This document shows positions 29,352-44,844 of a stretch of 64,000 nt of DNA, one piece after another (position 1 is the first letter of the stretch; each line of letters begins with the position of its first letter). Source of the DNA: the human T2T-CHM13v2.0 reference genome, Homo sapiens; assembly GCF_009914755.1 (NCBI RefSeq), contig NC_060944.1. The stretch is one strand, 5' to 3'. Both the position numbers and the translations under genes were made by a program. The notes below the pieces were generated by a model. That model had not been told where the DNA came from, searched no databases, and saw only the letters and a program-made list of their open reading frames with translations.

Positions 29352-29417
<66 letters not shown>
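29352..29417. repeat. Perfect (AT)33 microsatellite
   Basis: 66 bp of uninterrupted AT. Confidence 0.97.
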
Positions 29418-33087: not shown

Positions 33088-33161
33088 GAGTTGACAATAA
33101 GAGGGAGGAACCTTGAACCTGAGGGAGTTGACAGTAAGAGGGAGGAACCTTGAACCTGAGG
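33088..33161. repeat. 37-bp tandem duplication (2 copies, 1 mismatch)
   Basis: GAGTTGACA(A/G)TAAGAGGGAGGAACCTTGAACCTGAGG x2. Confidence 0.95.
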
Positions 33162-43090: not shown

Positions 43091-43131
43091 ATAAACTCTG
43101 CCTTGGGAACTTGATCCCAAGCTCTCTAGAC

Positions 43132-44802
43132 CTGCAATGTTCAAGCGGTATGTCCCACATACCACATGGGGCTACTAAGCCCTTCAAATGTGACTGGTCC
43201 AAATTAAAATATACTGTAAGTATAAAACACACTGAACTTGAAAGGCTTAGTCCAAAAACCGTAGTGCACAATATCTCCTTCATTTTTATAATATGATACT
43301 ATTATATCATAATTTTATAATATACTATTATATCATATTATATGATACTATTTATATCATCATATGATACTATATCATCATATGATGATATGATACTATA
43401 TCATCATATGATGATATGATACTATATCATCATATGATGATATGATACTATATCATCATATGATGATATACTATATCATCATATGATGATATGATACTAT
43501 ATCATCATATGATGATATGATACTATATCATCATATGATGATATGATACTATATCATCATATGATGATATGATACTATATCATCATATGATGATATGATA
43601 TACTATATCATCATATGATGATATGATATACTATATCATCATATGATGATATGATATACTATATCATCATATGATGATATGATATACTATATCATCATAT
43701 GATGATATGATATACTATATCATCATATGATGATATGATATACTATATCATCATATGATGATATGATATACTATATCATCATATGATGATATGATATACT
43801 ATATCATCATATGATGATATGATATACTATATCATCATATGATGATATGATATACTATATCATCATATGATGATATGATATACTATATCATCATATGATG
43901 ATATGATATACTATATCATCATATGATGATATGATATACTATATCATCATATGATGATATGATATACTATATCATCATATGATGATATGATATACTATAT
44001 CATCATATGATGATATGATATACTATATCATCATATGATGATATGATATACTATATCATCATATGATGATATGATATACTATATCATCATATGATGATAT
44101 GATATACTATATCATCATATGATGATATGATATACTATATCATCATATGATGATATGATATACTATATCATCATATGATGATATGATATACTATATCATC
44201 ATATGATGATATGATATACTATATCATCATATGATGATATGATATACTATATCATCATATGATGATATGATACTATATCATCATATGATGATATGATACT
44301 ATATCATCATATAACATGATGATATGATACTATATCATCATATAACATGATGATATGATACTATATCATCATATAACATGATGATATGATACTATATCAT
44401 CATATAACATGATGATATGATACTATATCATCATATAACATGATGATATGATACTATATCATCATATAACATGATGATATGATACTATATCATCATATAA
44501 CATGATGATATGATACTATATCATCATATAACATGATGATATGATACTATATCATCATATAACATGATGATATGATACTATATCATCATATAACATGATG
44601 ATATGATACTATATCATCATATAACATGATGATATGATACTATTATATCATAATATGATATAATATTTTGGACATACTAGGTTAAATAAGATATAGTTAT
44701 ATAAATCAATTTCACTTATTTCTTTCTCATTCTTTAATGTGACTACTGAAGCATATGAAATTCCATGCATAGCTGACATTCTACTTCTATTGGGCAGCGC
44801 TG
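43132..44802 (-). mobile_element. MER33 (hAT-Charlie) split by the minisatellite
   Basis: Left part CCACATGGGGCTACTAAGC...TGTAAGTATAAAACACAC; right part TAATATTTTGGACATACTAGGTTAAATAA...TCTATTGGGCAGCGCTG; together collinear with the MER33 reverse complement. Confidence 0.85.
43372..44641. repeat. AT-rich palindromic minisatellite, 45 units of 23-31 bp
   Basis: Core ATATCATCATATGATGATAT; blocks of 7x26 plus 1x23, 24x28, 2x26 and 11x31 bp. Confidence 0.97.
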
Positions 44803-44844
44803 CTTGAAGCCTTCAGTATCTGATCACTTGCAACAAAAACAGAG

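What the first reader, a model, noticed from the sequence alone, without database searches (positions are those of the whole stretch)
43291..44654. 1.27-kb minisatellite of tandem perfect palindromes born inside a MER33 transposon
Seen: 45 units built on the perfect 20-bp palindrome ATATCATCAT|ATGATGATAT, in homogeneous blocks: 43372-43576 (7x26 plus 1x23 bp), 43577-44248 (24x28), 44249-44300 (2x26) and 44301-44641 (11x31). An identical 23-mer ATATGATACTATTATATCATAAT, itself a hairpin, sits at both ends (43291-43313 and 44632-44654) and looks like the seed. The flanks are the two halves of one MER33. Inference: a very recent, hypervariable, hairpin-driven VNTR expansion. Any unit can pair with any other, so it is a candidate cruciform/fragile element resembling AT-rich palindromic repeats, and is likely collapsed in short-read assemblies.
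Basis: partly seen in the sequence, partly recalled or inferred. Interest (0 to 1): 0.7.

Follow-up and report, generated by a model that had tools for sequence, protein, structure and literature searches.

The report
Hairpin-unit minisatellite inside MER33 fossil
A real 1.3-kb run of 45 short self-complementary DNA repeats sits in the middle of a dead transposon inside the human TSHZ2 gene; it likely grew from a small copying error and is probably a neutral variable repeat, of a kind that also occurs elsewhere in the genome.

Summary
The array is real and is counted correctly: 45 units in 43372-44641. Of these, 34 hold the perfect 20-bp palindrome and 11 hold it with a 5-nt insert; copies within each class are identical. 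The palindrome occurs nowhere else in CHM13. The flanks are two halves of one ~320-bp hAT-type element: 51 of 58 other copies align straight through the site, and a published MER33 matches the family. New here: the seed and the 18-to-26-bp step carry template-switch signatures. The 28-bp unit is a slippage variant. The PATRR comparison fails: 78% AT and perfect arms of 10-21 bp, against >90% AT and several-hundred-bp palindromes. Copy number does not follow hairpin strength. The architecture recurs: a catalogued human-specific VNTR on chrX has 79 identical hairpin units, and the FRA16B unit is also a hairpin. Polymorphism, ape alleles, cruciforms and fragility could not be tested. Verdict: a clean new member of a known kind, most likely neutral.

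The parts
43132..43290 (.). Left half of a MER33 (hAT-Charlie non-autonomous DNA transposon) fossil
   Evidence: 83% identity (128 of 155) to family profile positions 8-169; 39 other genomic matches listed
43124..43131 (.). Left 8-bp target-site candidate; matches the right candidate (44803-44810) at only 4 of 8
   Evidence: other copies keep up to 8 of 8 (best of 25 registers)
43291..43313 (.). Left copy of the 23-bp seed (hairpin with 7-bp arms)
43314..43371 (.). Degenerate precursor units ending in one 18-bp unit (43354-43371); holds a 12-bp perfect inverted copy (43331-43342) of the left junction (43287-43298)
43372..43576 (.). 3x26, 1x23, 4x26 bp units, each with the perfect 20-bp palindrome
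43577..44248 (.). 24 identical 28-bp units (26-mer plus an AT duplication); block is 85% identical to its own reverse complement
44249..44300 (.). 2x26 bp units
44301..44641 (.). 11 identical 31-bp units; palindrome interrupted by a 5-nt insert (10+5+10 hairpin)
44632..44654 (.). Right copy of the 23-bp seed
44641..44665 (.). Perfect 12+1+12 inverted repeat whose right arm is the MER33-derived flank; the likely founding template switch
   Evidence: no other exact copy of this centre in CHM13
44655..44802 (.). Right half of the MER33 fossil with its terminal inverted repeat
   Evidence: 82% identity (118 of 144) to family profile positions 186-331

Best explanation
This is an AT-rich minisatellite of 45 hairpin units lying in the centre of one MER33 transposon fossil inside TSHZ2; it likely began with a short template switch during replication, likely grew by slippage and unequal exchange, and is probably neutral. 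Step 1 (shown): the two flanks are one element whose other copies have about 10 bp where this one has 1,362. Step 2 (inferred from sequence): a template switch overwrote about 12 bp of the centre with the reverse complement of the neighbouring MER33 bases, giving a miniature forward-inverted-forward triplet with a 21-bp direct period. Step 3 (inferred): slippage copied this seed, which decayed to the 18-bp unit; a second fold-back copy of 8 nt completed the 20-bp palindrome (26-bp unit). Step 4 (inferred): an AT slip gave the 28-mer and a 5-nt insert gave the 31-mer, each then amplified in a block. Each unit carries both arms, so single strands are predicted to fold into many interchangeable hairpins, which would aid misalignment; perfect arms stay short, so a long stable cruciform is unlikely.
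For: One element: 28 of 58 other copies show both halves -8 to 36 bp apart with the window halves as query, and 51 of 58 align through the site with the family profile. 0 of 58 carry a comparable array. Seed: a cluster of mismatches to the family profile is exactly the reverse complement of the adjacent 12 flank bases. The 8-nt insert of the 26-mer is a reverse complement of the 18-mer tandem in 5 of 8 placements and a direct copy in 0 of 8. The 28-mer is an adjacent AT duplication. Degenerate edges with homogeneous blocks inside. Template switches create perfect inverted repeats and are enriched near AT-rich DNA (PMC7954356, passages). 23% of the GC-filtered human minisatellites studied derive from transposons (PMC3389668). 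The architecture recurs in CHM13. The supplied annotation lists no exon or functional element over the array; no Rfam match.
Against: The ancestral state is inferred from paralogues, not from ape orthologues. The 18-to-26 step can also be made by two successive slips (3 nt, then 5 nt), although no 21-bp intermediate of that kind is present. The 5-nt insert of the 31-mer is neither an exact direct nor an exact inverted copy. Neutrality rests on absence of annotation, not on a test. Only one haplotype was seen, so variability is assumed. The 58 comparison copies are top BLAST hits, not a random sample.
Confidence: 0.7

Rival explanations
1. A structure-prone fragile element: the array stalls forks through hairpins or short cruciforms, and rare long alleles would behave like the AT-rich minisatellite rare fragile sites FRA16B and FRA10B.
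For: Folds far better than shuffles and, per base, more strongly than the FRA16B motif (-0.31 vs -0.17 kcal/mol/nt). The FRA16B unit has the same design, with 9-bp arms. A review argues that various AT-rich motifs may become fragile when expanded (PMC9714581, passages).
Against: 1.27 kb is far below the >5 kb of FRA10B and the up to 2,000 copies of FRA16B. 78% AT with no A/T run over 6 and no A-tract 4-mer, so a poor distamycin target by inference. Perfect arms break every 20 bp. '20q13' occurs 0 times in the fragile-site review. Inverted-repeat and cruciform motifs were depleted of ssDNA signal genome-wide, though the authors say the assay may miss them (PMC12637528, passages).
Confidence: 0.15
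2. A regulatory VNTR: the 34 CATATG E-boxes at the palindrome centres, or the long double-stranded RNA that the intron can form, tune TSHZ2 expression or processing with copy number.
For: 34 CATATG sites; the sense RNA of ten 28-mers folds into one long hairpin, -157 kcal/mol, z = -15; it lies 18 kb downstream of an exon of other TSHZ2 transcripts (annotation).
Against: No RefSeq functional element over it; no WGATAR site; no Rfam hit; 0 papers hold TSHZ2 and VNTR. That CATATG binds neural bHLH factors, and that these flanks are unfavourable, is recalled and untested.
Confidence: 0.1
3. The length or the perfect homogeneity is an artefact of the assembly or of this cell line.
For: Palindromic AT-rich DNA is hard to sequence (PMC4940405, passages). 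The locus was not found in the four supplements searched.
Against: The block order, a single 23-bp variant and five distinct unit classes are not what consensus smoothing would make; 1.3 kb is short for long reads (recalled). An equally homogeneous chrX hairpin array has independent long-read support at 689-2,917 bp. The supplements searched are partial lists and the GRCh38 position was estimated from recall.
Confidence: 0.05

Closest known systems
Human-specific VNTR in the CLCN5 row of Course et al. 2021 (PMC8327921, Table S1)
   Same: 26-bp unit holding a hairpin with 10-bp arms; perfectly homogeneous kb-scale array (79 units in CHM13); 321 bp in the reference and 689-2,917 bp in long-read genomes.
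   Different: 54% AT, one unit class, 3-nt loop rather than a spacer-free palindrome; no degenerate precursor units at its edges.
AT-rich minisatellites of rare fragile sites FRA16B (33 bp) and FRA10B (~42 bp)
   Same: AT-rich 30-40-bp units with an internal inverted repeat (FRA16B motif: 9-bp arms); several unit variants.
   Different: 91-94% AT versus 78%; fragile only when expanded to many kb; fragility shown there, untested here.
PATRRs (PATRR11, PATRR22 and others)
   Same: AT-biased and self-complementary; can form fold-back structures.
   Different: PATRRs are single near-perfect palindromes of several hundred bp and >90% AT. This is a tandem array with 10-21-bp perfect arms and 85% self-complementarity.
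Short-range template switches (PMC7954356) and small inverted triplications (PMC13334657)
   Same: A mutation cluster equal to the reverse complement of a neighbour; forward-inverted-forward layout that is open to slippage.
   Different: SITs average about 150 bp per segment and were seen to be eliminated; here the segments are 7-12 bp and seeded a kb-long array.
Transposon-derived minisatellites (PMC3389668)
   Same: Single-locus tandem repeat arising inside a transposon and growing locally.
   Different: The unit is not a copy of transposon sequence but a rearranged derivative; that survey excluded arrays under 40% GC.

Membership tests
MER33 (hAT-Charlie) | ~320-bp dispersed element, both flanks collinear in other copies | tested here: met
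   51 of 58 copies align through the site; profile positions 11-331
MER33 (hAT-Charlie) | Terminal inverted repeats | tested here: met
   About 15-bp TIR in the family profile; the right end is clear in the window, the left end is decayed
MER33 (hAT-Charlie) | 8-bp target-site duplication | tested here: inconclusive
   7-8 of 8 in 4 of 19 near-full-length copies (best of 25 registers); 4 of 8 in the window copy
MER33 (hAT-Charlie) | Identity with a named MER33 | tested here: met
   Indirect. The chr19q13 5.4-kb megasatellite unit is published as holding a Mer33 (PMC2588610). The fetched stretch has a 5,354-bp period and matches the profile (68% over 259 bp, E 3e-26) and the right flank (E 5e-6). 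No Dfam or Repbase search was available.
Minisatellite / VNTR | Head-to-tail units of 7 bp or more | tested here: met
   TRF period 28, 45.7 copies, 96% matches
Minisatellite / VNTR | Copy number varies between people | not testable with these tools
   Only one human genome is held; not found in the supplements searched
PATRR | >90% AT | tested here: not met
   78% against the definition
PATRR | Near-perfect palindrome of several hundred bp without spacer | tested here: not met
   Longest perfect arms 10-11 bp without spacer and 21 bp with spacer; 85% self-complementarity
PATRR | Recurrent translocation breakpoints at the centre | not testable with these tools
   No breakpoint data; one search listed 2 papers, neither read
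AT-rich minisatellite rare fragile site (FRA16B/FRA10B type) | AT-rich unit with internal inverted repeat | tested here: met
   (less AT-rich than either)
AT-rich minisatellite rare fragile site (FRA16B/FRA10B type) | Expansion beyond ~5 kb | tested here: not met
   1.27 kb in this haplotype; threshold; other alleles unknown
AT-rich minisatellite rare fragile site (FRA16B/FRA10B type) | Distamycin- or BrdU-inducible gap | not testable with these tools
   Needs cytogenetics

The most novel reading that the evidence does not exclude
The locus preserves, step by step, how serial template switches turn dead transposon DNA into a palindrome-unit minisatellite. Such arrays (this one, chrX, chr3, chr8, chr11) form an unrecognised class of human-lineage hypermutable VNTRs whose rare giant alleles are uncatalogued fragile sites, here one at 20q13.2 inside TSHZ2.
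Probability: 0.1. Interest if true: 0.65.

Novelty: new member of a known kind. Interest (0 to 1): 0.3.

Why it matters
As an ordinary VNTR it matters little. Its value is as a natural record: the seed, the precursor units and four derived unit classes all survive in order between two transposon halves that fix the ancestral state. That makes the birth of a minisatellite by template switching directly testable with ape and pangenome assemblies; a published survey could explain the origin of only 6% of transposon-derived tandem repeats (PMC3389668, abstract). If long alleles exist and break, it would extend the FRA16B/FRA10B class to a 78%-AT palindromic unit.

Tried and rejected
PATRR membership: rejected on AT content and arm length. 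The seed as a MER33 family trait: rejected. With up to 2 mismatches the hairpinned centre has 4 matches in CHM13, of which 1 is this locus and 3 are an identical 2-mismatch sequence on chr13, chr14 and chr21; 0 of 58 copies hold a similar array. Simple hairpin drive: not supported by stability versus copy number. Uniqueness of palindromic-unit arrays: rejected. Structured RNA family: 0 Rfam matches. GATA-site cluster: 0 WGATAR. Population and ape data: no hit in Course 2021 Tables S1-S2 (1 of 3 files not searchable), the 945-Han supplements (1 scanned file unreadable), the Huddleston 2017 tables or the VNTRseek supplement. The coordinate terms used a recalled GRCh38 offset (about chr20:53.20 Mb) and these files are not complete catalogues, so absence means little. 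Four papers asked for by recalled id were not held. Supplements of bioRxiv preprints (e.g. PMC13308034) are closed and may list this locus.

Full report
Observation. The array is as described. The 20-bp palindrome occurs 34 times, in the order 3x26, 1x23, 4x26, 24x28, 2x26. Eleven 31-bp units follow, in which a 5-nt insert splits the palindrome into a 10+5+10 hairpin. All copies within a class are identical. The array spans 1,270 bp and is 78% AT. TRF reports period 28, 45.7 copies, 96% matches. All 34 exact matches of the palindrome in CHM13 lie here; the reversed control has none. The 23-mer is exact at both ends and nowhere else; 11 further places match with 2 mismatches, against 16 for the control.

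Host element. Each flank retrieves dispersed copies at 72-89% identity (40 scored each). Of 58 other loci, 32 showed both halves on one strand with the window halves as query; 28 had them -8 to 36 bp apart and 4 had gaps of 315-1,043 bp. By eye those four gaps are Alu-like and other insertions. A profile from the 28 copies gives an element of about 320 bp with terminal inverted repeats. With it, 51 of 58 loci align in one piece through the site of the array. The window halves match it at 83% and 82%. No repeat library was available, so the name was tested indirectly. A paper says the 5.4-kb chr19q13 megasatellite unit holds a Mer33 (PMC2588610, passages). A stretch fetched at a recalled position there has a 5,354-bp period and matches the profile at E 3e-26. 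MER33 is described as a probable deletion product of Charlie5 (PMC3525145, passages) and as a frequent target of later insertions (PMC2836564, passages). None of the 58 copies has a comparable array in the central 1 kb of its locus.

How it arose. At the right edge a perfect 12+1+12 inverted repeat (44641-44665) has the transposon flank as its right arm. Its left arm replaces family sequence with a cluster of mismatches. This is the signature of a short template switch (PMC7954356, passages). With the bases upstream it makes a forward-inverted-forward triplet, a miniature of the small inverted triplications of PMC13334657 (abstract and passages). A second 12-bp inverted copy lies at the left edge. 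The left edge steps through degenerate precursor units to one 18-mer. The 26-mer is the 18-mer plus 8 nt, which are a reverse complement of the 18-mer tandem in 5 of 8 placements and never a direct copy. Two successive slips could do the same, so this is parsimony, not proof. The 28-mer adds an adjacent AT duplication. The 5-nt insert of the 31-mer has no exact source. With no substitution in 1,270 bp, a star model bounds the age at about 2.4-4.7 Myr (the rates are recalled, and homogenisation could reset the clock).

Structure. Ten 28-mers fold at z = -10 (DNA) and z = -15 (RNA), and 0 of 200 shuffles do as well. The DNA ensemble has no dominant structure, as expected when every unit carries both arms. 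Perfect arms are short, however: 10-11 bp without spacer and 20-21 bp across a 1-8 nt spacer. The 28-mer block is 85% self-complementary. Stability does not track copy number: 23-mer -0.40 kcal/mol/nt, 1 copy; 26-mer -0.31, 9 copies; 28-mer -0.31, 24 copies; 31-mer -0.23, 11 copies; 18-mer -0.21, 1 copy. The two units that stayed single are the strongest and the weakest folders, so hairpins may permit expansion but do not rank it.

Comparison. PATRRs are several hundred bp, >90% AT and nearly perfect (PMC4940405, passages); two defining features fail here. FRA16B and FRA10B are closer: AT-rich 33- and ~42-bp units, fragile only at many kb (PMC9714581 and PMC2875025, passages). The FRA16B motif has 9-bp arms. 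Palindromic cores in tandem recur in CHM13. One 10-bp core gave 77 paired matches, with 14 other loci among the 50 places listed; another gave 137. The chrX VNTR of Course 2021 (PMC8327921; passages and table rows seen) has 79 matches of its hairpin at exact 26-bp spacing in CHM13 and 689-2,917-bp alleles. Transposon-derived minisatellites are common (PMC3389668, abstract and the first part of Results).

In print. No paper in the library holds TSHZ2 with VNTR. 19 hold TSHZ2 with 'tandem repeat' and 18 were listed; no title or abstract start concerns this locus (listing only). Searches listed 2, 1 and 2 papers, none read. PMC13308034 (abstract and passages) has no mention of TSHZ2 or chr20. PMC12637528 was seen as passages; PMC11811171, PMC5411763 and PMC8096271 as supplement searches only. 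Four supplement sets gave no hit, but they are incomplete and the GRCh38 position was recalled. The locus is probably present without comment in genome-wide repeat tracks (inference from the TRF score of 1,857).

Verdict. A real, young, unusually legible minisatellite; most likely neutral (0.7), with fragility (0.15), regulation (0.1) and artefact (0.05) as rivals. It is a new member of a known kind; interest 0.3.

Noticed in passing
window 29352-29417: A perfect (AT)33 at the tail of an Alu-like element. It is fully self-complementary and so a better cruciform candidate than the array; it recalls the polymorphic AT element of FRA16D mentioned.
   Followed up: partly
G000:C23:49373296-49375346 (L076, L077): 79 matches at exact 26-bp spacing, each unit holding a 10+3+10 hairpin, with sharp edges; this is the CLCN5-row human-specific VNTR of PMC8327921.
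   Followed up: partly
G000:C3:185458154, C11:123157888, C8:123722522, C2:117474913, C1:94894265, C7:40654508: Other tandem arrays with palindromic AT-rich cores, of periods roughly 15-40 bp; not fetched.
   Followed up: no
L049, L052, L053, L068: MER33 copies interrupted by 0.3-1 kb insertions (Alu-like by eye), three of them close to the same AT-rich centre; fits the report that MER33 is a frequent insertion target.
   Followed up: partly
window 33088-33161: A 37-bp tandem duplication, 97% identical.
   Followed up: no
G000:C13:12010875, C14:7279989, C21:9085231: An identical 26-bp AT-rich stretch on three acrocentric chromosomes resembles the right edge of the array with 2 mismatches; probably a shared duplicated segment.
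   Followed up: no
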